The position numbers were made by a program, and so were the translations under genes. Below are positions 24,964 to 61,543 of a stretch of 64,000 nucleotides of DNA, one piece after another. Within the stretch, counting starts at the first letter, position 1, and each line of letters starts with the position of its first letter. The notes beneath the pieces were generated by a model. The model was not told the origin of the DNA, searched no databases, and was given only the letters and a program-made list of their open reading frames with translations. Location of the stretch: positions 11,831 through 75,830 of the forward strand of contig JAWAZI010000002.1 of NCBI GenBank assembly GCA_038817835.1, written 5' to 3'. This stretch comes from Candidatus Pacearchaeota archaeon. Lineage in GTDB: Archaea; Nanobdellota; Nanobdellia; Pacearchaeales; JAPDKA01.

Positions 24964-25424
24964 ATTTTCTTGAATTTTTTTTCTTTTATTTGTTTTAATA
25001 CTATTTCAATAAAATTATCAATTTTTTCTTCGTTTATACCTTTATTTTTTAATATTTTTTTAATTTCAATCTCTGTTAAATAATAATTCTTGAATTTTTC
25101 ATTTAATTTTTTCCATGGTATTCCAGCTAATGAATTTGCAAGATCTATATCAAAATCAAGTTTTTTTTCTATCATAAGTAAAGCTATTGAAGGATATCCT
25201 AAATAGCCTTTAAATTTACTACCATTGTCATCAGAAGTTATTGAATTATCTTCAGGAATATAGGTAATATTATAAGTTTTATCTCTATTTGAACTTAAAC
25301 ATATCGCTTTTACAATTCTTTTCTCTTTTTTTTCATCACTAATAATTTTTATTCTTCCATCAGTAATTGCACCTAAAGCTTCAAGTATTTTTATTCTAGG
25401 AGGTAATTTCCAAAATTTATTCAT
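24960..25424 (-). CDS. hypothetical protein (154 aa)
   Basis: Its start overlaps the stop of the upstream glycosyltransferase-like gene by 4 nt. No motif recognised. Confidence 0.5.
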   Translation of the reverse strand: MNKFWKLPPRIKILEALGAITDGRIKIISDEKKEKRIVKAICLSSNRDKTYNITYIPEDNSITSDDNGSKFKGYLGYPSIALLMIEKKLDFDIDLANSLAGIPWKKLNEKFKNYYLTEIEIKKILKNKGINEEKIDNFIEIVLKQIKEKKFKKI

Positions 25425-29322: not shown

Positions 29323-29568
29323 TCAAAGAAATTTAAAAATTATCCAGATTAAAAAGAAAACAATAAATAAAATAATAAATAAAAATAAAGCTAATAAAAT
29401 AGCTTTTTTGCTTGTTCCAAAAGCAAAAGGAATAAATCCAATTATTCCAACAACTCCAACTTCTGCTTTTGAAGTTGAATTTAAATTTTTTATTACATAA
29501 ATTAAAATCATAAATATTGATAAAATAAAAAATAATATTGCTAAAATTAAAAAAATTTCAGATTTCAT
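29323..29568 (-). CDS. small membrane protein (3 TM), last gene of the long minus-strand block
   Basis: 81 aa. ATGA overlap with the upstream 461-aa gene. Confidence 0.5.
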   Translation of the reverse strand: MKSEIFLILAILFFILSIFMILIYVIKNLNSTSKAEVGVVGIIGFIPFAFGTSKKAILLALFLFIILFIVFFLIWIIFKFL

Positions 29569-30950: not shown

Positions 30951-30951
30951 T

Positions 30952-31305
30952 TTATTTTCTCATTAACTCAAATGTAGAAGCTAAATCAATGATATATTTT
31001 CCTTCTTCTATTTTAAAGATAATTGGATTTTTCTTAAATAATTTAACTAAATCTATCTCAAATTTTCCTGGTTTTATTGCTCTTATTGATTCTAAATCTA
31101 AAATTACAGGAGTTTCTTCTGGAATTTTTATTATTTCTTTTATTTCTTTCTCAATTTCCTTCACTTCTTCTTGAGTTAAATTTATTATTTCCTCTTTTGG
31201 CTTCTCCTTAAAAAAATAAAAAAATTTACTACCACATTTACATCCTTTTAATATTACATTTGATTCTTCATATATCCTTCCACATCTAACACATTCATAA
31301 GGCAT
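30952..31305 (-). CDS. Zn-ribbon protein (COG3364-like, OapC-like)
   Basis: 117 aa. The N-terminus is MPYECVRCGRIYEE....LKGCKCGSKFFYF. Confidence 0.65.
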   Translation of the reverse strand: MPYECVRCGRIYEESNVILKGCKCGSKFFYFFKEKPKEEIINLTQEEVKEIEKEIKEIIKIPEETPVILDLESIRAIKPGKFEIDLVKLFKKNPIIFKIEEGKYIIDLASTFELMRK

Positions 31306-31336
31306 AAAAAAGAAAATAAAAACATATTTAAATATT

Positions 31337-31720
31337 TTATATTTTCAGATATAATTCAAGTTTACTAATATCTTTTTTTATTTCCCTTACAATTGTCGCT
31401 GGACCAATTATAGTAATCATATCCCTATCTCCAACCAAAGCATCAGCAAGTTTTTTTCTTAATTTACCAAATATATTATCTTCTGGTTTTGGTACTAAAG
31501 TTGCAATCTCAATTCCTTTAAAATTTTTTCTTTTTCCTATATTAACCATAGTTTCCTCTATTAAATCTGCTTCTTCATCATGACTCAATTTTCCTTGTAA
31601 AATAATTATTTTATTTTCCTTTATATTATCGAGTAAAAATTTAACTCTCTTATAACTTGAAAGATTTTCTATTTTTGAAAATGGTATAAACTGAATTTTT
31701 ATACCTTTTATTTTTTTCAT
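31337..31720 (-). CDS. DUF2073-like protein (OapB-like)
   Basis: 127 aa. Contains LSSYKRVKFLLDNIKENKIIILQGKLSHDEEADLIEETM..I......FKGIEI, which matches my memory of the DUF2073 consensus. Confidence 0.6.
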   Translation of the reverse strand: MKKIKGIKIQFIPFSKIENLSSYKRVKFLLDNIKENKIIILQGKLSHDEEADLIEETMVNIGKRKNFKGIEIATLVPKPEDNIFGKLRKKLADALVGDRDMITIIGPATIVREIKKDISKLELYLKI

Positions 31721-32373
31721 TTTCTCTTTATTTTAGATTTTTTAATTAAATTAAATAAAGTCTCATAAAATTCTTCCATATTTTTGCCATATTTAGCTGA
31801 AATACCAACAACATCATATTCAGGAAATGCTGCTTCTATTGCTTTTAAATTTGCTCTCTTTAAATCAATTTTATTTGCTACAATCATTAAAGGAATTTTT
31901 CTAGCAGCTATATTACCTATAATTGTAATATTTACTTGACTATAAGGATTCTCGCATGCATCTAAAACTACAATTATAACATCCATATCATCTATCCATT
32001 TTATAGCCTCTATAACTCCTCTTGTTGCTTCTTTTGCTCTTTTTCTTGCTTCTGATTTACTTAAACCATAACGTAAAAAATTCTCATAATCAATTTTAGT
32101 TGTTATTCCTGGAGTATCAACAATTTTAAAATTTAAACTTTTTCCTTTATGTGTAATTTTTACACCTTCTTTTATTGTTATCTCTCTTGTCTCATGTGGT
32201 ATATTACTTACTTTTCCAATCTCTTCACCAATCCAATCTTTACATATTCTATTTGCTAAAGTAGTTTTTCCTGCATTTGGAGGACCATAAAAACCTAATT
32301 TTAATTCTCTCTTTACTGAAAATATATTATTAAAAATTCTTTGAAAAAAATTTGTAATAATTCTTATAACCAT
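31717..32373 (-). CDS. small GTP-binding protein (OapA-like archaeal GTPase)
   Basis: 218 aa. G1 is GPPNAGKTTL, G3 is DTPG and G4 is NKID, with SAK near the end. Confidence 0.8.
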   Translation of the reverse strand: MVIRIITNFFQRIFNNIFSVKRELKLGFYGPPNAGKTTLANRICKDWIGEEIGKVSNIPHETREITIKEGVKITHKGKSLNFKIVDTPGITTKIDYENFLRYGLSKSEARKRAKEATRGVIEAIKWIDDMDVIIVVLDACENPYSQVNITIIGNIAARKIPLMIVANKIDLKRANLKAIEAAFPEYDVVGISAKYGKNMEEFYETLFNLIKKSKIKRK

Positions 32374-32375
32374 TT

Positions 32376-34916
32376 TTATCTAATTTTTAAAGTCTTTTTA
32401 ACTTTTTTTATTATATAATCTACTTGCTGTTTTTTCCATCCAGCATTTAAAAGTTGTTGTCTTATCTCATTTTCTTTTTTTCCACTTTTTAAAGAGTTTG
32501 AAACAAAATTAAATAAATTATAATAATCCGCAGCATATGGGAAAAGTTTTTTCTCTTTTTCTTTTTGTTTTATTTTTAAATTTTTAATAATATGTGGGGC
32601 CCAAATTATAATTAAACCTATAATAACCAATATTATTAAGATTATTGAGATAAATAATAAAGGACTTTTTCTTTTTTCATATAATTCTGGTTCTCCATAT
32701 ATTTCTTCACATTCTATTTCATCTATATTATTTGGTGTAGCATAAATATTTACTTCATAAGGAATTATCTCATCATTGTATGCAATTTCTACTGAAGTAG
32801 TATTAAAGCTTATAGCATTTCCTAAATCATTAAAGTTTTTATATGAGTAAATGTCTGAAGATGGTAATTCAACAATTATATTTCCATTATTAATTAAAGA
32901 TAAATAAATAACAGTTATTTTCTTTGTTTCACCATTATAAAATATTATATTTACTATTTTTCCTGAAATTTTTAGTTTTTTATTATTCCATAAAGCTAAA
33001 CTTTTTTTACACGAATCACTATCACAATTGCAATTTCCTAAAATTCTCTCAACATTATCTAAATTTATTTTTTCCCAATTAACAATATAAGTAATCTGTG
33101 GATAATTTGAAATCATTATATTTTTTGGTATTTTATTTTTTAAATTATCAAATTCATTTTTTATTGAATCTAAATCTCCACCAGAAGATAAATTTACTAA
33201 TAACTCTCTAAGTTTATTTTTAGTTTCATTAAGCTCAATTAAATCTATTAGCCAAGATTTATAAAATTCTCCACTTAAATTATTTTCAAAATTTTTGATA
33301 TCATTAATAGCTTTATTCAATGAAGAATTTAATGTATCTTTATCAATACCAACTACTATCTCAAATCCTCTAACTCCAAAAAAATTTTTTTCATCAACTA
33401 CTTTAACAGTTACTAAATATTTTCCAGAATTAGAATATTTATGCTCAAAAATACCATTAGAATTACTTTCTATTGAAGATCCATCACCCCAGTTAACTTC
33501 ATAGTTAATTATATTCCCATTTGGAGAATATGCAATTATTCTAAATTCAGTTTCTTCATTAACAATTACCTTGTTTGGAATTATAGCTGCAATAATAGGA
33601 ACATCTTCTACATAAAATGTTTCAGTTGCTATCAAATAATTATCAAAATAAATTTTTAAAGTATAATTGCCTTTAATACGAGGTGCAGTTAAATTAAAAA
33701 CTTCTAAAGGAATAGATATAAAACCTTTACTATCTACTTTAGGATATTCTACACCAATTTCACTAAATTTATCTAAAAGTAAAGAAGTTCCTCCAGAAAC
33801 AAATCTCAAGTTTAGATCTTTCAAATTAAATCTTTGAGTTGAGTTTATAAATAACGGAATAATACAACCATTACTACAATTATTGTTATATTTTGAATTT
33901 ATATAGTTATTTATATCATTAATCAAATTTTTCTTTGTTTGCTCAAAATAAACTGAAGAATTAAAATTTACATCACCAATTAATCCTCTATTTTTATATT
34001 CTGCAATAAATAAACCATAATGTGATCCGCTATATTGAATTAAAAAAGTATCACTAACATCAGCTCTTACACAAACCTCATAATTTCCTTCTTCTACAAA
34101 AACATCTATATCACAACTAACATAGCTATAATCTCCGCTATAATCTGTAGTATTACATTCTTTAACTATGCCATGTGGTGTTTTTATCTTAAAAAATATA
34201 GTTCCTAGTTGTGAAAAATTTTTTAACTTTATAATACCTCCAACTTTTACTTTACCAGCTGTATATTTTAATGTTATATTATCACAATATTCTTGAGTAG
34301 TTAATATTGCATCATAATTATAACTGAAATTAGTTGGAAACTTAAGTGAACAATTAGAATCTGAAGGATTAATATATAAGTAATCTATACTACCATCAAT
34401 AAAAAGATCTATAATTAAAGGAATATTCCCACATGAATCTTGTTGATTATTTTCTCCACTAATAACAAAACTTAAATCTTGAACATTTACATTTTCTCCA
34501 TTAAGATTAAAACCAATAAATTTTTCTCCAGAGCCACTAATATTTTCATTTGTACTTTTAACATAAAAAACTTTATCACAAGTAACTTTTATATTATTAT
34601 ACCAGCAATCATAATTAATGTTAGTTTTATTCAAAATTTCTAAAATCTTTAATATAGAGTATTTCCCAGTTCCTAATATCTCTGCTTTTATTTTTGATTG
34701 AGAAGAATCATTTTTCAAACTTATATTAAGATATCCATTTATTAATTGATTAGCTCCAACAGGATTAACTATTAACTTTGGATTACCAATTTCATAGGCA
34801 GATACATTTACTAAAAAAATAAAAAAAATTAAAAAAACAAACTTCAACCCCTTTTTCATTAAAAATATTTTAAAAAACATAATTAAAAATTTTTCTTTTC
34901 TAAATTTTCTCTTCAA
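32376..34916 (-). CDS. large surface protein with PKD domain, C-terminal TM anchor and short cytoplasmic tail
   Basis: 846 aa by the track. The signal-peptide-like start MKKGLKFVFLIFFIFLVNVSA at 34859 is more likely. The PKD block is YEVNWGDGSS...HKYSNSGKYLVTVKVVDEKN. The TM is LLFISIILIILVIIGLIIIW, followed by a basic tail. Confidence 0.7.
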   Translation of the reverse strand: MKRKFRKEKFLIMFFKIFLMKKGLKFVFLIFFIFLVNVSAYEIGNPKLIVNPVGANQLINGYLNISLKNDSSQSKIKAEILGTGKYSILKILEILNKTNINYDCWYNNIKVTCDKVFYVKSTNENISGSGEKFIGFNLNGENVNVQDLSFVISGENNQQDSCGNIPLIIDLFIDGSIDYLYINPSDSNCSLKFPTNFSYNYDAILTTQEYCDNITLKYTAGKVKVGGIIKLKNFSQLGTIFFKIKTPHGIVKECNTTDYSGDYSYVSCDIDVFVEEGNYEVCVRADVSDTFLIQYSGSHYGLFIAEYKNRGLIGDVNFNSSVYFEQTKKNLINDINNYINSKYNNNCSNGCIIPLFINSTQRFNLKDLNLRFVSGGTSLLLDKFSEIGVEYPKVDSKGFISIPLEVFNLTAPRIKGNYTLKIYFDNYLIATETFYVEDVPIIAAIIPNKVIVNEETEFRIIAYSPNGNIINYEVNWGDGSSIESNSNGIFEHKYSNSGKYLVTVKVVDEKNFFGVRGFEIVVGIDKDTLNSSLNKAINDIKNFENNLSGEFYKSWLIDLIELNETKNKLRELLVNLSSGGDLDSIKNEFDNLKNKIPKNIMISNYPQITYIVNWEKINLDNVERILGNCNCDSDSCKKSLALWNNKKLKISGKIVNIIFYNGETKKITVIYLSLINNGNIIVELPSSDIYSYKNFNDLGNAISFNTTSVEIAYNDEIIPYEVNIYATPNNIDEIECEEIYGEPELYEKRKSPLLFISIILIILVIIGLIIIWAPHIIKNLKIKQKEKEKKLFPYAADYYNLFNFVSNSLKSGKKENEIRQQLLNAGWKKQQVDYIIKKVKKTLKIR

Positions 34917-35979
34917 TTAAATTTTTCTTTTCCTCCTTCCACAATCTCAACAAATTACTTTTAAATCTATCTAAATCCTCTATTTTCATAGATGCCCCTA
35001 AAGCACAATCATGACCACCAGCACTAGCATTTTCTATACCATTAATAGCTTTAATAACAATATCCCTAATTTTATATCTACTTCTTATTGATATTTTAGC
35101 TGTATCTCCTTTTAAATATGCAACAACAATTATTTTATTTGGATATTTATAAAGCAATGCATTAGAGATTTCAGCAGAAATACTTAAATTACCACCATAT
35201 TGAAAAAATAATATTTCGTGTTTAGCAAAATTTTCAGCTTTTTCTATTAATTTTGAAAATTTTTTATAAATATAATTAAATCTTTTGTGAATTCCTTTAT
35301 TTTTTTCATTTATTTCTAATATTTCATAGGGTGTTTCAACTTTAGATAAAAATTTTAGCATTTTTGTTATATTTGTTGTTGTATCTTTTAAACCAAAGTT
35401 TAATATTTGAATTATTTTTCCAAAAGAAGTTTCATATAATATTTTTGAAACATCTTCAGTTTTTCCAATTTCAAATAAATCTTTATATTCATTATAAATT
35501 TGATCAAAATATTCTGGAATAAACCAATCTGATATACATCCTAAACCTGCAATCCAAAGATATTTTTTGTTTTCTATTAACTCATAAACCCAATAAGTTG
35601 TTGGTTTACTTATCCCTTTAAGAATAGTAGGATTAAATAATATTCTAACATTCTGATCAAAATATTCTAACATATTTATATCTTTATGATGATCAATCCA
35701 AACAAAATGATAATTTTTATCTTTTATATAATCAAGAAAAAGTTTTGAAATTTTTGGTTTATCTAAAACAAAGATACTATCAGGATTTATTTCTTCTATT
35801 TTTCTTATATAATTAAAACTTAATTCAGGAAAAGTTTTTATTGCGACTCCTTTTCCTTTTTCATAAGTTTTTTTAAATAATAAAAAAGATGCTAAACCAT
35901 CAACATCATTATCAAAAAAATATAATGGATTAGAAGAGTTCATTAAAATTTCTTTTATTTTTTTAATTATATCACTCAT
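34900..35979 (-). CDS. stand-alone DHH/DHHA1 phosphoesterase (NrnA/DhhP-like; RecJ/GAN-like is the alternative)
   Basis: 359 aa. Contains motif I DNDVDGLAS, DHH motif WIDHHKD, and DHHA1 motif SAGGHDCALGA. Confidence 0.75.
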   Translation of the reverse strand: MSDIIKKIKEILMNSSNPLYFFDNDVDGLASFLLFKKTYEKGKGVAIKTFPELSFNYIRKIEEINPDSIFVLDKPKISKLFLDYIKDKNYHFVWIDHHKDINMLEYFDQNVRILFNPTILKGISKPTTYWVYELIENKKYLWIAGLGCISDWFIPEYFDQIYNEYKDLFEIGKTEDVSKILYETSFGKIIQILNFGLKDTTTNITKMLKFLSKVETPYEILEINEKNKGIHKRFNYIYKKFSKLIEKAENFAKHEILFFQYGGNLSISAEISNALLYKYPNKIIVVAYLKGDTAKISIRSRYKIRDIVIKAINGIENASAGGHDCALGASMKIEDLDRFKSNLLRLWKEEKKNLIEEKI

Positions 35980-36983
35980 AATGAAGAAAAAAATTCTTTT
36001 ATTTTTTTTGCCTTTTTTTCTTTTATTCCTTTCTCTATAAAATCATTAATATCAGCTTCTATTATATTTTTCAAATTTCCAAAATTTTTTATTATTAATT
36101 CTCTTTCATTTTCATTAATAATATAAATTTTTTTTAGTAACCTATATCCTAAAGGAGTTAAATGATCAACAAGTTTATTTGATTCAAACAATTTTATTAT
36201 AAATTTGGGAGATATAATTTCATGATAGTCTGCTTTATTTAATGCTTCTTCTATATTATCAAAATTTATTTGATTATGATAATCTCTTTTTATTGATTCT
36301 ATCTCTTCATTTATAAAATTTTTAATTTCTTCAAATTGAAATTTTATAGTTCTTCCTTCTACTCCAAGTTCAGCCAAATAAAGTAAAAGTATATCAGAGA
36401 TATAGTCAAATATTTTTTTTCTTTGAAATATATTTGCTATATCTTCTATATTAACTATATCCAAAATTTCAGCTGTATTTAAATGTTTTACTAATTTTTC
36501 AAAGTTTTCTCTATGTCTATCTAAAACAGAAAAAGTTTCTCTTGCTTTAATTAAAAGATCACTTATATAATTTAATCTTAATTTTTTATTTCCATAATAT
36601 ACTGTTGCTATTTTGGTTTTCTCTGAAATAGCTAAAACAATTGCATTAAATTGTTTAGCAGTTCTCTCAGCAGCTTGATGTCTTGTTCCAGTTTCCTCAC
36701 TAACTATTCTTGAATTTGGAGTAAGCAAAACATTAGCATAAACAATTTTATCATCTTTAACAATTATTGCTCCATCAAGTTTTGCTAATTCTACTAATAA
36801 TTCTTCTGTCAATTTTTTATTTACTTTAAAACCCCCTTTACATATCTTCGTTATTTTTTTAAAATTATTATTATCTGCAAAAACTATTAGTGCTCCTCTA
36901 TAAGCACGAGTAATTTTCTCTATAGCATTTCTTAATATACTCCCATAAGAAAACATTTCTAAAATTTTTAATTTTGTTTCCAT
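35976..36983 (-). CDS. disA: DisA-type diadenylate cyclase (DAC domain + helical linker + C-terminal HhH)
   Basis: 335 aa. Collinear with bacterial DisA: GALIVF, ELAKLDGAIIV (DGA), ETGTRHQAAERTAKQ (RHR motif present as RHQ), VLAISEKT, PLGYRLLKKI, and a C-terminal HhH-like ...IIEADINDFIEKGIKEKKAKKIKEF. Confidence 0.8.
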   Translation of the reverse strand: METKLKILEMFSYGSILRNAIEKITRAYRGALIVFADNNNFKKITKICKGGFKVNKKLTEELLVELAKLDGAIIVKDDKIVYANVLLTPNSRIVSEETGTRHQAAERTAKQFNAIVLAISEKTKIATVYYGNKKLRLNYISDLLIKARETFSVLDRHRENFEKLVKHLNTAEILDIVNIEDIANIFQRKKIFDYISDILLLYLAELGVEGRTIKFQFEEIKNFINEEIESIKRDYHNQINFDNIEEALNKADYHEIISPKFIIKLFESNKLVDHLTPLGYRLLKKIYIINENERELIIKNFGNLKNIIEADINDFIEKGIKEKKAKKIKEFFSSL

Positions 36984-38011
36984 CTTTCTTTTAATTTTTT
37001 TAATATTATTTTTTCTTCATCAGCCCCAATAACTAAAACATAAGGTTTTTCATTATTTAAATATTTTTCATTTCTAATATTCTTCATTTTATCAATTTTA
37101 ACTTTTAAAAATTTCATTATTTTTTCCCTAACTGGCCAAGAGTTTTCTCCTATACCACCACTAAAAACAAATGCATCAATATCTTCAAAATTAATCAAAT
37201 AGCTAGAAGCTATTTTTGCTATTGAATAACAAAAAATATTAAAAGCAAAATTATATTTTTTATTTTTATTTCTAAGCATTATTATTTTCTCAAATTTTTT
37301 TGTATTAGCTAAAGCTAGAATGCCGGAATTATTTAAAATTTTCTCAGTATTTTTTATTCCAATTTTTTTTATTAAAAATAAAACAATACCAGGATCGATT
37401 GAACCAGATCTATTTATCATTATACTTCCTTCAAAAGGGGTAAATCCCATACTTGTTTCAATTGGCTTAAAATTTTTTATGGCAGTAATGCTACATCCTG
37501 CTCCTAAATGAAAAATTATTGCATTTTTCAAGTTTTCTTTTTTTAACTCTTCTATAATATTTTCAACATTAAGTCCATGAAAACCATATCTATAAATTTT
37601 ATATTTTTTTATAATTTTAGTTGGCAATGCATAAATTTTACTAATTAATGGTAAATCAAGAAAAATATCACTATCAAAAGCAATAAATTGTTTCAATTTT
37701 GGAAATTCCTTTTTTATTATTTTTATAACTTTTAATTGAAAAGGATTATGTAAAGGTGCTAATGGAATTGCATTAGCAATATTGTTTAATATTTTTTTAT
37801 TTAAAAAATTACTTTTACTTCCATAACCATGAACTACTCTATGAGCAACAACATCTATTTTTTTAAATTCTTTTTCAGCTTTTTTAAATATATTTAAAAT
37901 TAAATTTTTATTTGGTTTTGCATAAATTATTTCTTTATTTATTATCTCAAAATCTTTAAAGAATGAATATTTTATTGTTTCACTTCCTACATTAAAAATA
38001 ATACCTTTCAT
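36968..38011 (-). CDS. ackA: acetate/propionate kinase family protein (compact AckA)
   Basis: 347 aa. Signature blocks appear in order: FNVGSETIKY, HRVVHGYG, PLAPLHNP, YRYGFHGLN, FHLGAGCSITA, ETSMGFTPFEG, SGSIDPG, FSGGIGENS. Confidence 0.75.
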   Translation of the reverse strand: MKGIIFNVGSETIKYSFFKDFEIINKEIIYAKPNKNLILNIFKKAEKEFKKIDVVAHRVVHGYGSKSNFLNKKILNNIANAIPLAPLHNPFQLKVIKIIKKEFPKLKQFIAFDSDIFLDLPLISKIYALPTKIIKKYKIYRYGFHGLNVENIIEELKKENLKNAIIFHLGAGCSITAIKNFKPIETSMGFTPFEGSIMINRSGSIDPGIVLFLIKKIGIKNTEKILNNSGILALANTKKFEKIIMLRNKNKKYNFAFNIFCYSIAKIASSYLINFEDIDAFVFSGGIGENSWPVREKIMKFLKVKIDKMKNIRNEKYLNNEKPYVLVIGADEEKIILKKLKERWKQN

Positions 38012-56583: not shown

Positions 56584-56736
56584 ATGAAAAATAAAAAAGC
56601 AATAGAAATGAATGAAGTAATTTTATGGATAATTGCTATAATTAGCTTATTAGTTATAATAATAGGTATTTTCATTTTTAGAAAAGGTGGTGAAAATTTA
56701 ATTGAAAAAATAATAAATTTATTTAGATACAAATAA
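56584..56736 (+). CDS. small pilin/Flp-like membrane protein (50 aa; not in supplied ORF track)
   Basis: Sequence MKNKKAIEMNEVILWIIAIISLLVIIIGIFIFRKGGENLIEKIINLFRYK, from ATG 56584 to TAA 56734-56736. It fills the gap between ef1b and the next gene exactly. The antisense track ORF 56520-56732 is a shadow. Confidence 0.55.
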   Translation: MKNKKAIEMNEVILWIIAIISLLVIIIGIFIFRKGGENLIEKIINLFRYK

Positions 56737-56738
56737 TT

Positions 56739-57758
56739 ATGTTAGCTATTGAAAAGCTTGTTTCTTTAATTTTGAAAGTTTTAGCTTTTTTAGTAATTGT
56801 TATTATAATATTTTTATTAGCAAAAACTATTTATGATGGATTTAGTGGATATTTCAAAAAAGAAGAAATATTAAAAAAATATCAACCAAATTATGAATCA
56901 TTATTGAGAAATATTGAAGATTGCCATAAAATTGATGATTTTAATTGTATTTGTGAGATTTTCCCAAATTTCCCAGCAAGTTTTCCAGAAGAAATAAAAA
57001 TTAATATCACCACTATAAATAATAAATCTAATGTAACATTAATATATAAACAAAAAGATGTAATTGATTGGAGAGAAATAGAAAGTATATTTAGGGGGTA
57101 TGGTATTGTATTGATTGAGAATAAAAAAAACTTGGAAGAATTTGGAAAAGAAGAAATAACTGTTGAATTTAATAAAAAAGATATATATGGTTATCCTGGT
57201 TTTAAAACATCTTTACCTTCATTCTATACCATTTATAAAGAAGATATATATTTTATTTTAATTTCTCCATATATACTTAAAGTAACTAAAAATAGAAAAA
57301 ATATTTCTTATTTTTTAGGTATTTCTTCTAAGAAAATAGCCGGATATACAGGAACAGGCTTACCAATAATTAATTCAATAGAACTTAATGATTTAAATAA
57401 AGTTAAAGAAGATTTAGACAAGAAAATTGAAAATATTCCTAAATGTATTGATGGTAGATATCGCTCAGTTGAATTTTTTAAGAAATTAAATGAAACTATA
57501 ACAAATAAAAAAAATATAGAAAATTTAGAAGTAAATTTAGATGAAAAATTTTTAATTGAAATAGATGAGAAAAATATGAGATTATTATATTATAAAAATG
57601 GAGTAAAAGAAATTGTATCAATATTAAAAGAAGAAAATATAGAAGGAACATTGGCTTATGTTTCATTTGATCATGATATAAGCTGCAAAGGAAAAAAATT
57701 AGAATTAATGAATGGGGGTAAGATAAACATAATTAATGGTTGTATTGAAAAATTATAA
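56739..57758 (+). CDS. N-terminally anchored extracytoplasmic protein (339 aa)
   Basis: The N-terminus MLAIEKLVSLILKVLAFLVIVIIIFLL is followed by a Cys-containing soluble domain. No family recognised. Confidence 0.6.
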   Translation: MLAIEKLVSLILKVLAFLVIVIIIFLLAKTIYDGFSGYFKKEEILKKYQPNYESLLRNIEDCHKIDDFNCICEIFPNFPASFPEEIKINITTINNKSNVTLIYKQKDVIDWREIESIFRGYGIVLIENKKNLEEFGKEEITVEFNKKDIYGYPGFKTSLPSFYTIYKEDIYFILISPYILKVTKNRKNISYFLGISSKKIAGYTGTGLPIINSIELNDLNKVKEDLDKKIENIPKCIDGRYRSVEFFKKLNETITNKKNIENLEVNLDEKFLIEIDEKNMRLLYYKNGVKEIVSILKEENIEGTLAYVSFDHDISCKGKKLELMNGGKINIINGCIEKL

Positions 57759-57814
57759 AAAAACTTTTAAAATAATAAAACTTTAAAATTTTAAATAAAA
57801 TTAAAAAAATAAAA

Positions 57815-58159
57815 ATGAAAAAAAGAGGTCAAAACATAAATATAACAACAATAATAATACTTGTATTAGCAATTTTAGTACTTTTAATTGTTGCTATAAG
57901 TTTTACTGGTGGATGGACTAAATTATGGGAAAGAATAACAGGAACATATAAAACTGCTAAAGGTGCTGAGATTGGTCAGGCCTTACATCAATGTGAATTT
58001 TTGTATATTACTAATAATAAAAAAAGTTTTTGTTGTGATATTATTGAAGTAATTAATATAGGAAATACTACATGCAAAGATCTATTTGAGAGAGGATATA
58101 CTACAGAAAAAATTAATTCAACAATAGCAGTTGGATTTTGTGAAGAGATTAGTTGCTAA
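57815..58159 (+). CDS. type IV pilin-like protein (class III signal peptide-like)
   Basis: 114 aa. The N-terminus is MKKRGQNINITTIIILVLAILVLLIVAISF (basic head, G-Q, hydrophobic core). The small globular domain has 6 Cys. Confidence 0.55.
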   Translation: MKKRGQNINITTIIILVLAILVLLIVAISFTGGWTKLWERITGTYKTAKGAEIGQALHQCEFLYITNNKKSFCCDIIEVINIGNTTCKDLFERGYTTEKINSTIAVGFCEEISC

Positions 58160-58168
58160 ATATAAAAA

Positions 58169-58339
58169 ATGAATAAAAGATCACAAGAACTTAACATAAA
58201 GATAATAATTATACTTATAATTTGTTTAATTTTACTTGTTATTTCTATTATTTTTTTTAGTTCTGCTGCAAAACAAATATTTTCAAATCTAATAATAAAA
58301 ATAAAATCTGCTTTTAAACTATTAAATGCGACAACATAA
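58169..58339 (+). CDS. small single-TM protein (56 aa; not in supplied ORF track)
   Basis: Sequence MNKRSQELNIKIIIILIICLILLVISIIFFSSAAKQIFSNLIIKIKSAFKLLNATT. It overlaps the amidase gene start by 14 nt. It competes with, and is preferred over, the antisense ORF 58156-58383. Confidence 0.5.
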   Translation: MNKRSQELNIKIIIILIICLILLVISIIFFSSAAKQIFSNLIIKIKSAFKLLNATT

Positions 58340-59372
58340 ATCATTGATATTACCAACAACAATAATAAAGATAACAATATCAATAATTATACTAGTTGCT
58401 CTTATTTTTTTTGGAAAAAGATTAATAGATTCAATAATAACTTCCAGAGAGGAAACGCAAGCTCAATCACTTTTACAATCAATTAAAAATAGATTAGAAA
58501 ATACCATTTCAGAATATGATGAAAATTTAATTATTTATGCACCATTAAATTGGGATGTTGTATTTTTTCCTAAAGAATTGAATTTTATAAATGGAAAAAG
58601 AAAACCTGAAATTTATGAGTTATATGATGTTCTATGTTTATGTAAAGGGAATAAATGTAAATATTGTATTGTGGTTAATAAAAAAATTCTCGATGAAAAA
58701 AATAAGTATTTTAAATTAACTATAAAAAAACCAATACTTTTAGAAATTAAAAAAGAAGAAGATAGGTTTATTTTTCTTTTAGGAGAAATAGAAGAAAAAG
58801 AAATAAAAATTGAAACAAATCCAAATTTAGAATTTGATTCAACTTATTTTGGAAAATATCCACATAGAAAAGTTGAGAAAAGAGAAATAAAATATATAAT
58901 ATTTCATCATACTGGAGGAAATAGTATTCAAGGAGCATTACAAAATTTTAAAGATAAAGGTTTATCTTCACATTATATAATAGATAAAGATGGAAAAATT
59001 TATTATATCATAGATGAAAAATATATTGCTTATCATGCAAAAGACTATAATGATGTTTCTATAGGAATAGAAATAGTAAATAGTGGTTGTGAAGAATTTA
59101 CTCCTGAACAATATAATTCTTTAAAAAAATTGGTTAATGATATAAATGGAAGATATAAAAATTTACAAATTTTAGGACATTTTGAAATAAATCAACATAA
59201 ATGGGATCCGTCTCCAATTTTCAATTGGAGTGAATTAGGTTTAGAAGAAAAATATAAAAAATATTCACAAAATCAAATTAAATATGCATTTGAAGAATGT
59301 AAGAAAGATAAAATACTTGCACTTTCTCCTGCATCACAAGAAATAAAAGAATATTGGAAACAAATAATATAA
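58326..59372 (+). CDS. membrane-anchored N-acetylmuramoyl-L-alanine amidase (Amidase_2 / AmpD / T7-lysozyme / PGRP fold)
   Basis: 348 aa. Has an N-terminal TM (LILPTTIIKITISIIILVALIFF) and a spacer of about 150 aa. The C-terminal domain is IKYIIFHHTGG...SSHYIIDKDGKIYYI...AYHAKDYNDVSIGIEIVN...FTPEQYNSLKKLV...ILGHFEI...KWDPSP, with an AmpD-like H/H/D zinc triad. Confidence 0.75.
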   Translation: MRQHKSLILPTTIIKITISIIILVALIFFGKRLIDSIITSREETQAQSLLQSIKNRLENTISEYDENLIIYAPLNWDVVFFPKELNFINGKRKPEIYELYDVLCLCKGNKCKYCIVVNKKILDEKNKYFKLTIKKPILLEIKKEEDRFIFLLGEIEEKEIKIETNPNLEFDSTYFGKYPHRKVEKREIKYIIFHHTGGNSIQGALQNFKDKGLSSHYIIDKDGKIYYIIDEKYIAYHAKDYNDVSIGIEIVNSGCEEFTPEQYNSLKKLVNDINGRYKNLQILGHFEINQHKWDPSPIFNWSELGLEEKYKKYSQNQIKYAFEECKKDKILALSPASQEIKEYWKQII

Positions 59373-59374
59373 AA

Positions 59375-59488
59375 ATGAAAAAAGCTGATATAGCAATGGA
59401 AACTATTATTAAAATTTTAATATTTATATTAGTATTAGCAGGTTTAATTATAGGATTAAAAAAATTGTTAGATTTACTATTAAGATGA
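59375..59488 (+). CDS. very small pilin/Flp-like membrane peptide (37 aa; not in supplied ORF track)
   Basis: Sequence MKKADIAMETIIKILIFILVLAGLIIGLKKLLDLLLR. ATGA overlap with the next gene. Confidence 0.45.
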   Translation: MKKADIAMETIIKILIFILVLAGLIIGLKKLLDLLLR

Positions 59489-60291
59489 GAAAAGCTATAA
59501 TAAAGACGTGGGTGATTGGAATAATAATTTTAATTATTTCTGCAGCCATATTAATTTATTTTGCAACAAAGTTAGCACATTTAGGAATAGATAAAAGAGA
59601 AGCATGTAGGCAGAGTGTTGTATTAAGAAGTAAAAGTATCGCTGGTCTACATCCTGGAGAAGCTTTGCCATTAAATTGTCAAACAGAAATAATAAAAATT
59701 AAAACTAGTGATGAGGAAGAAATTAAAAAAATAATTAGTGAAGCTTTATATGATTGTTGGTATATGATGGGGGAAGGAGAATTAGATTTTATAGGGGAAA
59801 GTGGGGAAAAATCATGTGTAATATGTAGTATAATAAAATTTGATGAAAAAATTAAGGGAAAAAATATAAGTGGGCTATATAAATATATGAGGGAAACAAT
59901 AATACCAGGAAAAAATATAACTTTTGCAGATTACATAATGAAAAGAGAAGAAAGTGAAATTCATATGGAGAATGATACTTTAAAAATAGATAAAGATTAT
60001 GCTATTGTATTTTTAATAGTAAGTTCACCAACTCTTGGAGAAACCATAATAAAGAGTTTAATTGGAGTAGGATATGGGGGTATAATTGGAAAGATATTCT
60101 CTCAAGTGATAGCTAAATTAAGTGTTGCAGGATTAATTGTTGGGGCTATACCATCTATAGCTGATTATATACAAACATGGATTAAATGTAAAGGCCATAA
60201 TATGTGTACAGCTTTAATGTTTATCCCATATAATGCTACAGCATTAAGTCAAAGTTGCCAAATTATATTGAGTATCCCTCCAGAAGAATAG
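59485..60291 (+). CDS. membrane protein with N-terminal anchor, Cys-rich ectodomain and C-terminal Gly-rich TM pair
   Basis: 268 aa. Starts MRKAIIKTWVIGIIILIISAAILIYF and contains LIGVGYGGIIGKIF...VAGLIVGAIPSI. No family recognised. Confidence 0.6.
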   Translation: MRKAIIKTWVIGIIILIISAAILIYFATKLAHLGIDKREACRQSVVLRSKSIAGLHPGEALPLNCQTEIIKIKTSDEEEIKKIISEALYDCWYMMGEGELDFIGESGEKSCVICSIIKFDEKIKGKNISGLYKYMRETIIPGKNITFADYIMKREESEIHMENDTLKIDKDYAIVFLIVSSPTLGETIIKSLIGVGYGGIIGKIFSQVIAKLSVAGLIVGAIPSIADYIQTWIKCKGHNMCTALMFIPYNATALSQSCQIILSIPPEE

Positions 60292-60310: not shown

Positions 60311-60383
60311 TGGGCCCGCCAGGATTCGAACCTGGGATCTCTGCCACGTCAAGGCAGCGTCGTAACCACTAGACCACGGGCCC
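60311..60383 (-). tRNA. tRNA-Val (anticodon GAC)
   Basis: The reverse complement is GGGCCCGTGGTCTAGTGGTTACGACGCTGCCTTGACGTGGCAG...CCAGGTTCGAATCCTGGCGGGCCCA. Confidence 0.9.
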
Positions 60384-61151: not shown

Positions 61152-61490
61152 ATGAAAGAAATTGAAGAGAAAGATTTTGAAGATGTATTAAAAAAATCAA
61201 AACAAAAAACTATACTTATTGATTTCTATGCAGATTGGTGCATGCCATGCAGAATATTAAAACCTATAATTGAAAGTATAGAAAAAGAATTCGAAGATAA
61301 AAACATAGAATTCTTAAAAATAAATATCGATAAAAATAGAAATTTAGCTTTAGCATTTAATATTTTGAGTATACCAACAATTATTTTATTAAGAAATGGG
61401 AAAGAAATAAGTAGAATTGTTGGTGCTTTACCAAAAGAAGAAATTATATATTGGATAAATAAAAATTTAAAAGCCTCGGGAGGGATTTGA
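61152..61490 (+). CDS. trxA: thioredoxin
   Basis: 112 aa. Has the active site WCMPCR (WCxPC) and a cis-Pro SIPT. The last 19 nt overlap tRNA-Thr on the opposite strand. Confidence 0.88.
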   Translation: MKEIEEKDFEDVLKKSKQKTILIDFYADWCMPCRILKPIIESIEKEFEDKNIEFLKINIDKNRNLALAFNILSIPTIILLRNGKEISRIVGALPKEEIIYWINKNLKASGGI

Positions 61491-61543
61491 ACCCTCGACC
61501 TGCCGGTTACAAACCGGCTGCTCTACCGCTGAGCTACCGAGGC
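61472..61543 (-). tRNA. tRNA-Thr (anticodon TGT)
   Basis: The reverse complement is GCCTCGGTAGCTCAGCGGTAGAGCAGCCGGTTTGTAACCGGCAGGTCGAGGGTTCAAATCCCTCCCGAGGCT. Confidence 0.9.

What the first reader, a model, noticed from the sequence alone, without database searches (positions are those of the whole stretch)
58326..59372. Signal-anchored Amidase_2 (AmpD/T7 lysozyme/PGRP-type) N-acetylmuramoyl-L-alanine amidase in an archaeon
The C-terminal ~150 residues match the family blocks: IIFHHTGG, SSHYIIDKDGKIYYI, AYHAKDYNDVSIGIEIVN, FTPEQYNSLKKLV and ILGHFEI...KWDPSP. These include an AmpD-like His/His/Asp zinc triad. The N-terminus is a single TM or pilin-like segment, followed by a ~150-aa spacer of unknown fold. 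The substrate bond (MurNAc-L-Ala) exists only in bacterial murein. The gene therefore implies interaction with bacterial cell walls through predation, parasitism of a bacterial host, competition or peptidoglycan scavenging. It could also be a horizontally acquired endolysin repurposed for something else.
Basis: partly seen in the sequence, partly recalled or inferred. Interest (0 to 1): 0.65.

Follow-up and report, generated by a model that had tools for sequence, protein, structure and literature searches.

The report
Pilin-borne murein amidase in a Pacearchaeote
A tiny symbiotic archaeon (Pacearchaeota) encodes an intact bacterial-cell-wall-cutting amidase fused to a pilin-like carrier inside a pilus-type operon, and relatives carry other wall-cutting enzymes in the same slot, which suggests a surface device for breaching bacterial cell walls.

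Summary
ORF 58326-59372 (+, 348 aa) has a Pfam Amidase_2 domain (E 2.8e-29) with an intact AmiD/AmpD-type active site (H194, E249, H285, K292, D294). The genome is archaeal, and its MCM is 79% identical to Candidatus Pacearchaeota MAGs.

Peptidoglycan hydrolases in Pace-/Woesearchaeota are already published, so "murein amidase in an archaeon" is not new by itself. The context is more interesting:

- **Carrier module.** The "spacer of unknown fold" is a large family (over 1,000 relatives). It has a prepilin-like leader ((K/R)(G/A), then a hydrophobic helix, Glu at +5/+6). A confident model (pLDDT 91) shows a 50-residue helix followed by a β-domain.
- **Cargo.** Of 149 members scanned, Pfam recognises C-terminal domains in about 35, and all of them are murein hydrolases (SLT 15, Glucosaminidase 9, Amidase_2 6, 3D, M23, M15/VanY).
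- **Operon.** The gene sits in a conserved operon of 7-11 pilin-like genes. In relatives this operon adjoins a T2SSE ATPase and a polytopic membrane protein.
- **Same slot.** In syntenic operons the slot holds a bare carrier, carrier+SLT, carrier+Glucosaminidase+M23, or carrier+amidase.

Best reading: a modular pilin-like subunit that presents a murein hydrolase to bacterial walls. Filament incorporation is inferred. Foldseek found no solved pilin match, and no prepilin peptidase was found.

The parts
56584..56736 (+). First gene of the operon: 50-aa pilin-like protein, MKNKKA|IEMNE... followed by a hydrophobic helix
   Evidence: Starts 2 nt after the aEF-1-beta stop. The same small gene was called on the independent assembly L001.
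56739..57758 (+). 339-aa protein with an N-terminal hydrophobic helix (MLAIEKLVSLILKVLAFLVIVIIIFLL) and no basic leader. No family assignment.
   Evidence: Pfam gives nothing significant. No BLASTP hit among the operon proteins of related loci.
57815..58159 (+). 114-aa Cys-rich pilin-like protein, MKKRG|QNINITT... followed by a hydrophobic helix
   Evidence: Weak BLASTP matches at the same operon position in L007 (91 aa, E 1e-3) and L013 (120 aa, E 6e-3). By eye it resembles the 97-aa protein of L003, which also has a CC motif; this was not tested.
58169..58339 (+). 56-aa pilin-like mini-protein, MNKRS|QELNIK... followed by a hydrophobic helix. It overlaps the amidase gene start by 14 nt.
   Evidence: ORFs of 50-59 aa sit in the same position in L086, L088 and L090.
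58326..58502 (+). Amidase gene, residues 1-59: leader-like MRQHKS|LILPT followed by a long alpha-1 helix (residues 10-59), hydrophobic in its first half
   Evidence: AF2 model m295b4a8c358e, pLDDT 91. The carrier-family leader consensus is (K/R)(G/A)|(I/L)LLPE. The carrier profile aligns to type IV pilin leader plus alpha-1 (Geobacter PilA-N, E 0.0016).
58521..58787 (+). Amidase gene, residues 66-154: beta-sheet head of the carrier module, with conserved P73, W76, C104-x-C106, C111 and C114
   Evidence: Foldseek finds no match among PDB structures.
58788..58877 (+). Linker, residues 155-184, containing the conserved T164-x-P166 (KIETNPN) motif
   Evidence: T164 and P166 are invariant in alignment A1. 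Model confidence is lower here (block-mean pLDDT 71-86 over residues 151-185).
58878..59243 (+). Amidase_2 catalytic domain, residues 185-306. Codons: H194 at 58905-58907, E249 at 59070-59072, H285 at 59178-59180, K292 at 59199-59201, D294 at 59205-59207.
   Evidence: Pfam E 2.8e-29. HMMER alignments to AmiD 2bh7 and AmpDh2. These residues are conserved in 24-27 of 27 archaeal domains.
59244..59372 (+). C-terminal tail, residues 307-348, plus the stop codon. Lys/Glu-rich with predicted helices. Specific to this lineage.
   Evidence: Low confidence in the full-length model. Relatives end differently, for example in ...GYA.
59375..59488 (+). 37-aa pilin-like mini-protein, MKKA|DIAME..., with Glu exactly at +5
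   Evidence: ORFs of 39 and 44 aa follow the carrier gene in L086 and L088.
59485..60291 (+). Last gene of the operon: 268-aa protein, MRKA|IIKTW... followed by a hydrophobic helix, with a conserved Cys-containing domain. tRNA-Val (60311-60383, minus strand) follows.
   Evidence: BLASTP homologs in the operons of L007 (E 2e-28), L013 (5e-22), L006 (8e-21) and L011 (3e-8). tRNA.

Best explanation
The gene encodes a two-module surface protein of a Pacearchaeota (DPANN) archaeon.

- **Module 1 (residues 1-154)** is a type-IV-pilin-like carrier. It has a short basic leader, one roughly 50-residue N-terminal helix whose first half is hydrophobic, and a small Cys-stabilised beta-sheet head.
- **Module 2 (residues 185-306)** is a zinc-dependent N-acetylmuramoyl-L-alanine amidase of the AmiD/AmpD type. 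Zinc would be bound by H194, H285 and D294. E249 would act as general base and K292 would stabilise the transition state.

The gene is the fifth of seven co-directional, tightly packed genes (56584-60291). At least six of them encode proteins with the same kind of N-terminus. In related DPANN genomes the same operon lies next to a T2SSE/PilB-family ATPase and a conserved polytopic membrane protein, which together look like a type IV filament system.

Proposed mechanism:
1. The protein is inserted into the membrane through its N-terminal helix.
2. It may be trimmed by a prepilin peptidase.
3. It is incorporated as a low-abundance, probably tip-located, subunit of a filament or pseudopilus built from the operon's pilin-like proteins.
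4. The amidase head is thereby presented to the cell wall of a bacterial host or prey, where it strips stem peptides from glycan strands. This locally removes cross-links and opens the sacculus for attachment, penetration or nutrient and DNA uptake.

**Shown here:** domain identities, active-site integrity and conservation, archaeal origin, operon conservation, and interchangeable murein-hydrolase cargo on the same carrier in the same operon slot.

**Inferred:** leader cleavage, filament incorporation, tip location, the bacterial target, and the biological purpose.
For: **Enzyme**
- Pfam Amidase_2, 102.5 bits.
- Residue-level HMMER alignments to AmiD and AmpDh2 place H194, E249, H285, K292 and D294 on the corresponding motifs of those enzymes. 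That these are the zinc ligands and catalytic residues is my recollection of the AmiD/AmpD literature; I found no citable source.
- These residues are invariant in close relatives. In 27 archaeal domains they are kept in 27, 24, 26, 24 and 25 (+2 Cys) sequences respectively.

**Carrier is a real, widespread module**
- Exhaustive HMMER with residues 1-184 gives 1,055 hits at E<=1e-3 and 88 at E<=1e-10. Most are stand-alone proteins of 145-230 aa.

**Pilin-like features**
- 130 of 148 members have (K/R)(G/A) immediately before the hydrophobic helix. The median leader is 6 aa, and Glu is the commonest residue at +5 and +6.
- The AF2 model has pLDDT 91.2 and pTM 0.74, with helix 10-59 followed by a beta-sheet at 66-154.
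- With the carrier profile, 6 of the 10 weak PDB sequence hits are type IV pilins. The best is Geobacter PilA-N at E 0.0016, aligned across the KKG motif and alpha-1.
- About a quarter of members give weak NCBIfam hits to GspG, GspH, ComGD, ComGE, PilV or 'prepilin peptidase-dependent protein'.

**Cargo is always a murein hydrolase**
- Pfam census of 149 members: SLT 15, Glucosaminidase 9, Amidase_2 6, 3D 2, M23 1, M15/VanY 1-2, lysozyme-like 1. Nothing else is recognised except single sub-threshold hits.
- P0053 carries Glucosaminidase plus M23.

**Operon and slot**
- The window operon is enriched for the leader motif compared with the rest of the window (Fisher p = 4.5e-4 strict; 1e-6 if Ser at -1 is allowed).
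- The 268-aa neighbour has clear homologs in related operons, and the 114-aa neighbour has weak ones.
- In syntenic archaeal loci the slot after a 50-59-aa ORF holds a bare carrier (L088/L089), carrier+SLT (L086), carrier+Glucosaminidase+M23 (L090) or carrier+amidase (window, L007, L013).

**Machinery**
- A T2SSE ATPase is adjacent in L086, L007, L012, L013 and L090.
- A conserved 633-724-aa protein with 8-9 predicted TM segments lies beside it.

**Not a recent transfer**
- The 20 best GTDB matches are all DPANN archaea, and the DPANN domains cluster together in the NJ tree.
- The best phage hit is 35% identity over 54% of the domain.

**Published context**
- Pace- and Woesearchaeota carry murein hydrolases, and bacterial hosts have been proposed (PMC8204110, PMC9723730, PMC12352652).
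- Modular pilins that present grafted effector modules are established in bacteria (PMC8179133).
Against: - Foldseek of the confident carrier model finds no solved pilin, and nothing else either (best E 0.27, TM <= 0.26). Pilin kinship therefore rests on the leader, alpha-1, topology and gene context.
- The window protein itself has Ser, not Gly or Ala, at the putative -1 position and Thr, not Glu, at +5 (MRQHKS|LILPT). L007 and L013 lack a clear (K/R)(G/A) motif. This subfamily may have become a plain signal-anchored protein.
- BLAST searches with the relatives' ATPase and platform proteins found no match in the 64-kb window. No prepilin peptidase was identified anywhere: the 7-TM candidate in L086 has no GxGD motif and no Pfam hit.
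- Pfam does not recognise the putative platform protein as T2SSF.
- No cell-wall-binding domain is present.
- No host, no expression data and no biochemistry are available.
- The tree is a crude NJ tree on a pattern-ascertained sample, without support values.
Confidence: 0.6

Rival explanations
1. It is a plain membrane-anchored ecto-amidase. The N-terminal helix is only a signal anchor and the beta-domain is a stalk. The enzyme stays on the archaeal cell surface. It cleaves bacterial murein at a cell-cell contact, or it digests free peptidoglycan fragments for scavenging of amino acids and amino sugars. No filament is involved.
For: - The window protein has non-canonical residues at -1 (Ser) and +5 (Thr), and L007/L013 lack the (K/R)(G/A) motif.
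- There is no structural match to solved pilins.
- No prepilin peptidase was found.
- DPANN archaea are metabolically poor scavengers (PMC8204110, PMC9723730).
Against: - It does not explain why the gene always lies within an operon of 7-11 proteins with the same leader plus helix, beside a T2SSE ATPase.
- It does not explain why most carrier-family members are bare 150-230-aa proteins with no enzyme.
- It does not explain why the leader with Glu at +5/+6 is so strongly conserved in the family.
Confidence: 0.25
2. It remodels the organism's own wall. The hydrolase would locally open a murein-like wall of the archaeon itself so that the filament can be assembled through it, as FlgJ, SltF or VirB1 do in bacteria.
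For: - In bacteria, envelope-spanning machines commonly have a dedicated lytic transglycosylase or glucosaminidase. Those are the same domain families seen on this carrier.
- The fusion of a structural module to a muramidase recalls FlgJ (own knowledge).
Against: - Archaea are not known to make murein.
- About 40 of roughly 70 window genes were scanned against Pfam and none matched a Mur ligase or MraY.
- Many syntenic operons have a bare carrier with no hydrolase (L088/L089), so the enzyme is dispensable for assembly.
- The published view is that these lineages lack peptidoglycan and that such enzymes target bacteria (PMC8204110, PMC12352652).
- M15/VanY and M23 cargo point to D-Ala-containing bacterial stem peptides and cross-bridges.
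Confidence: 0.05
3. The domain binds or senses peptidoglycan without cutting it, like a non-catalytic PGRP. It would serve only as an adhesin or sensor for bacterial surfaces.
For: - The Amidase_2 fold is used for pure recognition in many animal PGRPs (weak PGRP hits).
- Modular pilins are typically adhesins (PMC8179133).
Against: - All catalytic residues that non-catalytic PGRPs typically lose are retained and conserved across the archaeal clade.
- Sister proteins carry other catalytic murein hydrolases (SLT, Glucosaminidase, M23), not binding domains.
Confidence: 0.06
4. It is a recently acquired phage endolysin, a bacterial contaminant or a chimeric assembly, with no role in the archaeon.
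For: Amidase_2 is a classic endolysin domain. The weak best phage hit is annotated as lysozyme/amidase.
Against: - The identical gene and its neighbours are assembled in two independent runs.
- GC content matches the flanks at about 23%.
- The gene is embedded between aEF-1-beta and a tRNA within conserved synteny.
- The DPANN domains cluster together in the tree.
- The best phage match is only 35% identity over 54% of the domain.
Confidence: 0.02

Closest known systems
AmiD / AmpD / AmpDh2-3 (bacterial Amidase_2 zinc amidases; PDB 2bh7, 4bj4, 1j3g)
   Same: Same catalytic domain. The motifs IHYT/FHHT, SSHY, AWHA/AYHA, SIGIE, GH..I and K.DP all align. The His/His/Asp zinc triad with a Glu general base and a Lys is predicted to work the same way.
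   Different: - Only about 30-35% identity.
- The loop insertions of AmiD and AmpDh2 are missing, so the domain is compact (about 120 aa).
- There is no lipobox and no PG-binding domain. It is fused instead to a pilin-like N-terminal module.
- It is encoded by an archaeon that is not expected to have murein of its own.
Modular type IV pilins (Streptococcus sanguinis PilB with vWA and PilC with lectin; Raynaud et al. 2021, PMC8179133)
   Same: The design principle is the same. An N-terminal pilin carrier (class III leader, long alpha-1, small beta-sheet) is joined by a short linker to a grafted effector module. It is encoded among minor pilin genes of a type IV filament locus, and the effector modules are swappable.
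   Different: - The described cases are bacterial, and most of the effector modules discussed bind ligands.
- The words 'archaea', 'peptidoglycan' and 'hydrolase' do not occur in that paper's main text.
- Here the cargo is always a murein hydrolase and the host is a DPANN archaeon.
- The carrier head matches no solved pilin, and processing is unproven.
Large extracellular SLT-domain proteins of Pace-/Woesearchaeota (Castelle et al. 2021 fam00969, PMC8204110; AR20; Vigneron et al. 2022, PMC9723730) and archaeal modular PGHs (Strock et al. 2025, PMC12352652)
   Same: The lineages are the same, and so is the inference: archaeal murein hydrolases aimed at bacterial walls, suggesting bacterial hosts or prey.
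   Different: - Those are giant multi-domain proteins (up to 3,000 aa), or enzymes selected for having a recognised cell-wall-binding domain and a Sec or Tat signal.
- This protein is small and has no wall-binding domain, so the Strock survey's filter would have excluded it.
- It uses a pilin-like carrier and belongs to a pilus-type operon. Those papers do not describe that link.
FlgJ, VirB1 and phage virion-associated peptidoglycan hydrolases (T4 gp5, T7 gp16, phi29 gp13)
   Same: A structural module of a penetrating or assembling nanomachine is fused to a murein hydrolase from the same repertoire (Glucosaminidase, SLT, M23, amidase), including two-enzyme combinations such as P0053. The comparison itself rests on my own knowledge of these systems.
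   Different: There is no sequence relationship outside the catalytic domains. Those machines drill the producer's own wall (FlgJ, VirB1) or serve a virus. Here the wall would belong to another organism in another domain of life.

Membership tests
Amidase_2 (PF01510) N-acetylmuramoyl-L-alanine amidase, AmiD/AmpD type | Profile match above the curated threshold over the whole domain | tested here: met
   102.5 bits against a cutoff of 26, model positions 2-131 of 131, residues 185-297.
Amidase_2 (PF01510) N-acetylmuramoyl-L-alanine amidase, AmiD/AmpD type | Zinc triad His / His / Asp (or Cys) | tested here: met
   H194, H285 and D294 align with the AmiD and AmpDh2 motifs IHYT, (A/G)H..I and K.DP. 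They are kept in 27, 26 and 25 (+2 Cys) of 27 archaeal domains. The ligand assignment in the reference enzymes comes from my own knowledge; no citable source was found in the library.
Amidase_2 (PF01510) N-acetylmuramoyl-L-alanine amidase, AmiD/AmpD type | Catalytic Glu in SIGIE, and Lys two residues before the Asp ligand | tested here: met
   E249 (SIGIEIVN) and K292 (HKWDP) are aligned. Each is conserved in 24 of 27 archaeal domains. T7 Tyr46 aligns with S215, as it does in AmiD and AmpDh2.
Amidase_2 (PF01510) N-acetylmuramoyl-L-alanine amidase, AmiD/AmpD type | Hydrolysis of the MurNAc-L-Ala amide bond in murein | not testable with these tools
   Needs a recombinant enzyme, sacculi and muropeptide analysis.
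Type IV pilin / modular pilin | Class III (prepilin) signal: short basic leader ending in Gly or Ala, then about 20 hydrophobic residues, often with Glu at +5 | tested here: inconclusive
   For the family the feature is met: 130 of 148 members, -1 is G (95) or A (35), median leader 6 aa, Glu commonest at +5/+6. The window protein itself has MRQHKS|LILPT, with Ser at -1 and Thr at +5, which is non-canonical. Its operon neighbours have KKRG|, KKA|, RKA| and KRS|.
Type IV pilin / modular pilin | Long N-terminal alpha-1 helix followed by a beta-sheet head | tested here: met
   AF2 model with pLDDT 91.2: helix 10-59 and strands between residues 66 and 154. Whether alpha-1C packs on the sheet could not be checked, because the model coordinates cannot be read with these tools.
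Type IV pilin / modular pilin | Detectable similarity to solved pilins | tested here: inconclusive
   By structure there is none (Foldseek best E 0.27). By sequence profile, 6 of 10 weak PDB hits are type IV pilins, the best at E 0.0016, but they cover only the leader and alpha-1. NCBIfam hits to pseudopilin models are weak.
Type IV pilin / modular pilin | Encoded with type IV filament machinery (PilB/FlaI-type ATPase, PilC/FlaJ-type platform, A24 prepilin peptidase) | tested here: inconclusive
   - The ATPase (PF00437) is adjacent to the operon in L086, L007, L012, L013 and L090.
- A conserved 8-9 TM protein lies beside it, but Pfam does not recognise it as T2SSF.
- No prepilin peptidase was found.
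- BLAST with the relatives' ATPase and platform proteins found no match in the 64-kb window.
Type IV pilin / modular pilin | Leader cleavage and polymerisation into a filament | not testable with these tools
   Needs N-terminal proteomics, a peptidase assay, and immuno-EM or cryo-ET.
Phage endolysin acquired by recent horizontal transfer | Close phage or bacterial homolog, and a mobile or prophage context | tested here: not met
   The best phage match is 35% identity over 54% of the domain. The nearest relatives are all DPANN. The flanks are housekeeping genes in conserved synteny, and GC content equals that of the flanks.
Modular peptidoglycan hydrolase in the sense of Strock et al. 2025 (catalytic domain plus cell-wall-binding domain) | A recognised cell-wall-binding domain (LysM, SH3b, PG_binding_1 and similar) | tested here: not met
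   Pfam finds only Amidase_2. The selection criterion is quoted.

The most novel reading that the evidence does not exclude
Pace- and Woesearchaeota build a type IV filament whose tip subunit is a cassette-like 'warhead' pilin. One carrier family is fused interchangeably to a murein amidase, lytic transglycosylase, glucosaminidase or endopeptidase. They would use it as a drill or harpoon to breach the peptidoglycan of bacterial hosts. That would make it a dedicated cross-domain (archaeon-on-bacterium) attachment and penetration organelle, and a genomic marker for predicting which DPANN lineages live on bacteria instead of on archaea.
Probability: 0.35. Interest if true: 0.85.

Novelty: new variant of a known kind. 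Interest (0 to 1): 0.62.

Why it matters
The hosts of most Pace- and Woesearchaeota are unknown, and none of the cultured DPANN-host pairs I am aware of involves a bacterium. Murein hydrolases are the main genomic hint that some of these archaea live on bacteria.

This locus turns that hint into a defined, testable apparatus:
- a conserved pilus-type operon,
- a specific carrier family with over 1,000 members,
- a single slot in which at least six murein-hydrolase families are exchanged.

That offers three things. It is a marker for sorting DPANN genomes into likely bacterium-associated and other lineages. It gives small soluble domains that can be expressed and assayed on sacculi of co-occurring bacteria. 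It also extends the 'modular pilin' principle to archaea and to enzymatic, wall-degrading cargo.

It also shows that surveys requiring a canonical wall-binding domain or a Sec/Tat signal (PMC12352652) will undercount archaeal peptidoglycan hydrolases.

Tried and rejected
- **First structure model.** The full-length AF2 run with a 6-sequence alignment gave pLDDT 57. It was used only as a hint and replaced by the module-only model with 63 sequences.
- **Foldseek.** The carrier model against PDB gave no significant hit. I therefore do not claim structural homology to pilins.
- **My MAFFT alignment to T7 lysozyme.** The alignment was shifted by one residue at the first His and at the Lys and Cys. 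It was discarded in favour of the HMMER alignments.
- **Word-indexed homolog searches.** They found only a handful of relatives. The exhaustive HMMER search was needed.
- **Prepilin peptidase.** The 243-aa, 7-TM gene after the L086 ATPase has no GxGD motif and no Pfam hit, so it was rejected as a candidate.
- **Platform protein.** Pfam gives no T2SSF match for the 633-724-aa polytopic protein. It is kept only as 'consistent with'.
- **Machinery in the window.** About 40 window ORFs were scanned against Pfam. BLAST with the relatives' ATPase and platform proteins found no match in the window.
- **Sigma-70 promoter and terminator scan.** Uninformative for an archaeon: fewer hits than in shuffles and no terminators.
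- **Phage donor hypothesis.** Rejected.
- **Literature.** No paper links DPANN pilins to PG hydrolases. No citable open source was found for the AmpD residue numbering.
- **Alignment A3.** It was rebuilt as A4.
Full report
**1.
Pfam Amidase_2 (PF01510) matches residues 185-297 across the whole model at E 2.8e-29, 102.5 bits against a gathering score of 26. Sequence search of the PDB returns AmiD, AmpDh2, T7 lysozyme, AmpD and phage or clostridial amidases. The window is archaeal. It encodes aIF2-alpha, aEF-1-beta, MCM with the archaeal winged helix, a ThrRS with the archaea-specific editing domain and an ATP-dependent DNA ligase. Its MCM is 79% identical to MCMs that NCBI names Candidatus Pacearchaeota. 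GC content is about 23% throughout, including the gene. The identical protein and its neighbours were assembled in two separate runs.

**2. The active site is intact and under constraint.**
HMMER alignments to AmiD (2bh7) and AmpDh2 put five residues on matching motifs:
- H194 on the His of IHYT
- E249 on the Glu of SIGIE
- H285 on the second His
- K292 and D294 on the K-x-D-P motif

From my own knowledge of AmiD and AmpD, these are the three zinc ligands, the general base and the transition-state Lys. I found no open paper in the library to cite for the numbering. T7 Tyr46 aligns with Ser215, exactly as in AmiD and AmpDh2 (SSHY/SAHY), so the enzyme is AmiD/AmpD-like, not T7-like. Across 27 archaeal domains recovered from GTDB genomes, H194 is kept in 27, E249 in 24, H285 in 26, K292 in 24, and D294 in 25 with 2 Cys.

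**3. It is a resident DPANN gene, not a recent endolysin pickup.**
A scan of one genome per GTDB species found 120 relatives. The 20 best are all Woesearchaeota, Pacearchaeota or Nanoarchaeia MAGs. Several are labelled 'uncultured Methanosarcinales', but some of these share the Woesearchaeota synteny and are probably mislabelled. In a rough NJ tree of the catalytic domain, 25 of the 27 archaeal sequences, including the window's, form one cluster. The other two (L032, L042) group next to it with an Omnitrophota and an Anaerolineae sequence. The sample was pattern-ascertained and the tree has no support values. The best phage match is 35% identity over 54% of the domain.

**4. The 'spacer' is a conserved pilin-like carrier module.**
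An exhaustive HMMER search with residues 1-184 (profile of three sequences) found 1,055 proteins at E<=1e-3 and 88 at E<=1e-10. Most are 145-230 aa, so they are the module alone.
- Consensus: M..(K/R)(K/R)(G/A)-(I/L)LLPE-hydrophobic helix-...QAK..L..I...L..GE...P.GW.LV.F...P..C....C.C.C....C.
- In 130 of 148 members a (K/R)(G/A) pair sits immediately before the hydrophobic helix. The median leader is 6 residues. The -1 residue is G in 95 and A in 35. Glu is the commonest residue at +5 (48) and +6 (43).
- With a 63-sequence alignment AlphaFold2 gives a confident model (pLDDT 91.2, pTM 0.74). It has a single helix at 10-59 followed by a beta-sheet between 66 and 154, which is the topology of type IV pilins.

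Independent tests of pilin kinship are mixed. Foldseek finds nothing in the PDB (best E 0.27). A permissive profile search of PDB sequences returns ten weak hits. Six are type IV pilins (Geobacter PilA-N at E 0.0016, PilA, PAK pilin), aligned over the KKG motif and alpha-1. About a quarter of members give weak NCBIfam hits to GspG, GspH, ComGD/E, PilV or 'prepilin peptidase-dependent protein'. The window protein is atypical, with MRQHKS|LILPT: Ser at -1 and Thr at +5.

**5. The carrier's cargo is always a murein hydrolase.**
Pfam on the 149 best members recognises the following, and nothing else except single sub-threshold hits:

| Domain | Members |
|---|---|
| SLT | 15 |
| Glucosaminidase | 9 |
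| Amidase_2 | 6 |
| 3D | 2 |
| Peptidase_M23 | 1 |
| M15/VanY | 1-2 |
| Lysozyme-like | 1 |

P0053 carries Glucosaminidase plus M23. Enzymes for the glycan bonds, the MurNAc-L-Ala bond and the peptide bonds all converge on one carrier. That makes bacterial murein, not some exapted substrate, the likely target. It also argues against pseudomurein, which lacks MurNAc and D-amino acids (own knowledge).

**6. Operon and slot.**
In the window the gene is the fifth of seven co-directional genes (56584-60291), separated by at most 57 nt or overlapping. The operon starts 2 nt after aEF-1-beta and ends at a tRNA-Val.

| Product | N-terminus |
|---|---|
| 50 aa | MKNKKA\| |
| 339 aa | hydrophobic helix, no basic leader |
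| 114 aa | MKKRG\| |
| 56 aa | MNKRS\| |
| 348 aa (amidase) | MRQHKS\| |
| 37 aa | MKKA\|DIAME |
| 268 aa | MRKA\| |

The motif is enriched compared with the other 66 window genes (Fisher p = 4.5e-4 strict, 1e-6 with Ser allowed). The 268-aa product has clear homologs, and the 114-aa product weak ones, in the operons of L007, L013, L006 and L011.

Related loci show 8-11 such genes. They are often followed by RPA and RadA. They are flanked by a T2SSE/PilB-family ATPase (PF00437; L086, L007, L012, L013, L090) and by a conserved 633-724-aa protein with 8-9 predicted TM segments.

The slot after a 50-59-aa ORF holds one of four things:
- a bare carrier (L088/L089, 157 aa)
- carrier+SLT (L086)
- carrier+Glucosaminidase+M23 (L090)
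- carrier+Amidase_2 (window, L007, L013)

In a second operon type (L006, L011, L018, L022, L025, and probably L003) the carrier is bare. There the amidase is fused to a different pilin-like subunit, the penultimate gene, with a 'GEKALFYID' N-terminal module.

**7. Mechanism.**
The best-supported reading is a modular pilin-like subunit that presents a murein amidase outside the archaeal cell. It is probably part of, or sits at the tip of, a type IV filament or pseudopilus assembled by the ATPase and platform. It would open the peptidoglycan of a bacterial host or prey locally. Processing, polymerisation, location and target are inferred. No prepilin peptidase was found, and BLAST with the relatives' ATPase and platform proteins found no match in the window. 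The main rival is a simple signal-anchored ecto-amidase. Self-wall remodelling, non-catalytic binding and contamination or recent transfer are unlikely for the reasons given under the rival explanations.

**8. Relation to the literature.**
- Castelle et al. 2021 reported large extracellular SLT-domain proteins in small-genome Pace- and Woesearchaeota and proposed bacterial hosts (PMC8204110).
- Vigneron et al. 2022 made a similar 'vampiristic' argument (PMC9723730).
- Strock et al. 2025 showed that about 5% of archaeal genomes, Nanoarchaeota prominently, encode modular PGHs, and that two haloarchaeal ones kill a bacterium. They required a wall-binding domain, which this protein lacks (PMC12352652).
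- Raynaud et al. 2021 defined modular pilins in bacteria. The words archaea, peptidoglycan and hydrolase do not occur in that paper's main text (PMC8179133).
- Full-text searches found nothing linking DPANN pilin-like proteins or pilus operons to murein hydrolases.

**9. Verdict.**
New here, as far as the searched library shows, are the pilin-like carrier family, its exclusive and interchangeable murein-hydrolase cargo, and its fixed slot in a conserved type-IV-filament-like operon of DPANN archaea. I rate this a new variant of a known kind, with interest 0.62.

Noticed in passing
window 34900-38011 (- strand): A bacterial-type c-di-AMP pair lies in this archaeon. DisA (DAC plus DisA-linker, 35976-36983) is next to a DHH/DHHA1 phosphoesterase (34900-35979) and is followed by an acetate kinase (36968-38011).
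   Followed up: no
window 4890-6107 and 25421-26596: Bacterial-type lipid genes: a PlsY-like glycerol-3-phosphate acyltransferase and an MGDG-synthase-like glycosyltransferase. This is in line with reports of bacterial-type lipid pathway genes in DPANN archaea (abstract of PMC8204110).
   Followed up: no
window 9439-11910 (+ strand): A second small cluster of four genes (243, 175, 200 and 208 aa). At least three have an N-terminal hydrophobic segment. One has a canonical prepilin-like start (10688-11290, MKKG|VEFLGVIL...), and one looks lipoprotein-like (11284-11910...FFSFSC). Pfam finds nothing for the 200-aa protein.
   Followed up: partly
window 29565-34916 (- strand) and 23068-24963 (+): Likely surface proteins: an 846-aa PKD-domain protein with an N-terminal signal-like segment, preceded by unannotated 461-, 117-, 127- and 218-aa genes, and a 631-aa secreted-looking protein with only a weak Cep192_D3 domain hit.
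   Followed up: partly
L013 2-3430: The T2SSE ATPase next to the L013 operon matches the L086 ATPase in two pieces (query residues 131-503 and 497-764). They are separated by about 1.5 kb of unmatched DNA, which may be an intein or another insertion at the junction.
   Followed up: no
L006, L010, L014, L018, L024, L032, L052 (record titles): Several 'binchicken' TPA MAGs are titled 'uncultured Methanosarcinales archaeon'. All have low GC (27-40%). L006 and L018 carry the same pilin-like operon followed by an RPA-like gene as the Woesearchaeota loci, and L006 also the RadA-like gene. The taxonomic labels look wrong.
   Followed up: partly
C-termini of P0002-P0005 and of the L013 ORF: Amidase-bearing relatives end in a short conserved aromatic motif (...GYA...GYTIA...YGYDCTLIA) that the window protein lacks. 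The window protein has a 42-aa Lys/Glu-rich helical tail instead. This might be a sorting or interaction motif.
   Followed up: no
window 61152-61543: The 3' end of the 112-aa ORF at 61152-61490 (+), which contains a CxxC motif and looks thioredoxin-like by eye (not scanned against any family library), overlaps tRNA-Thr (61472-61543, - strand) by 19 nt.
   Followed up: no
P0038/P0055/P0148, P0144/P0151, P0081/P0121 and about 28 singletons: Many long carrier-family proteins (260-400 aa) have C-terminal domains that Pfam does not recognise. They form several small clusters. These could be undescribed wall-degrading or wall-binding modules.
   Followed up: partly
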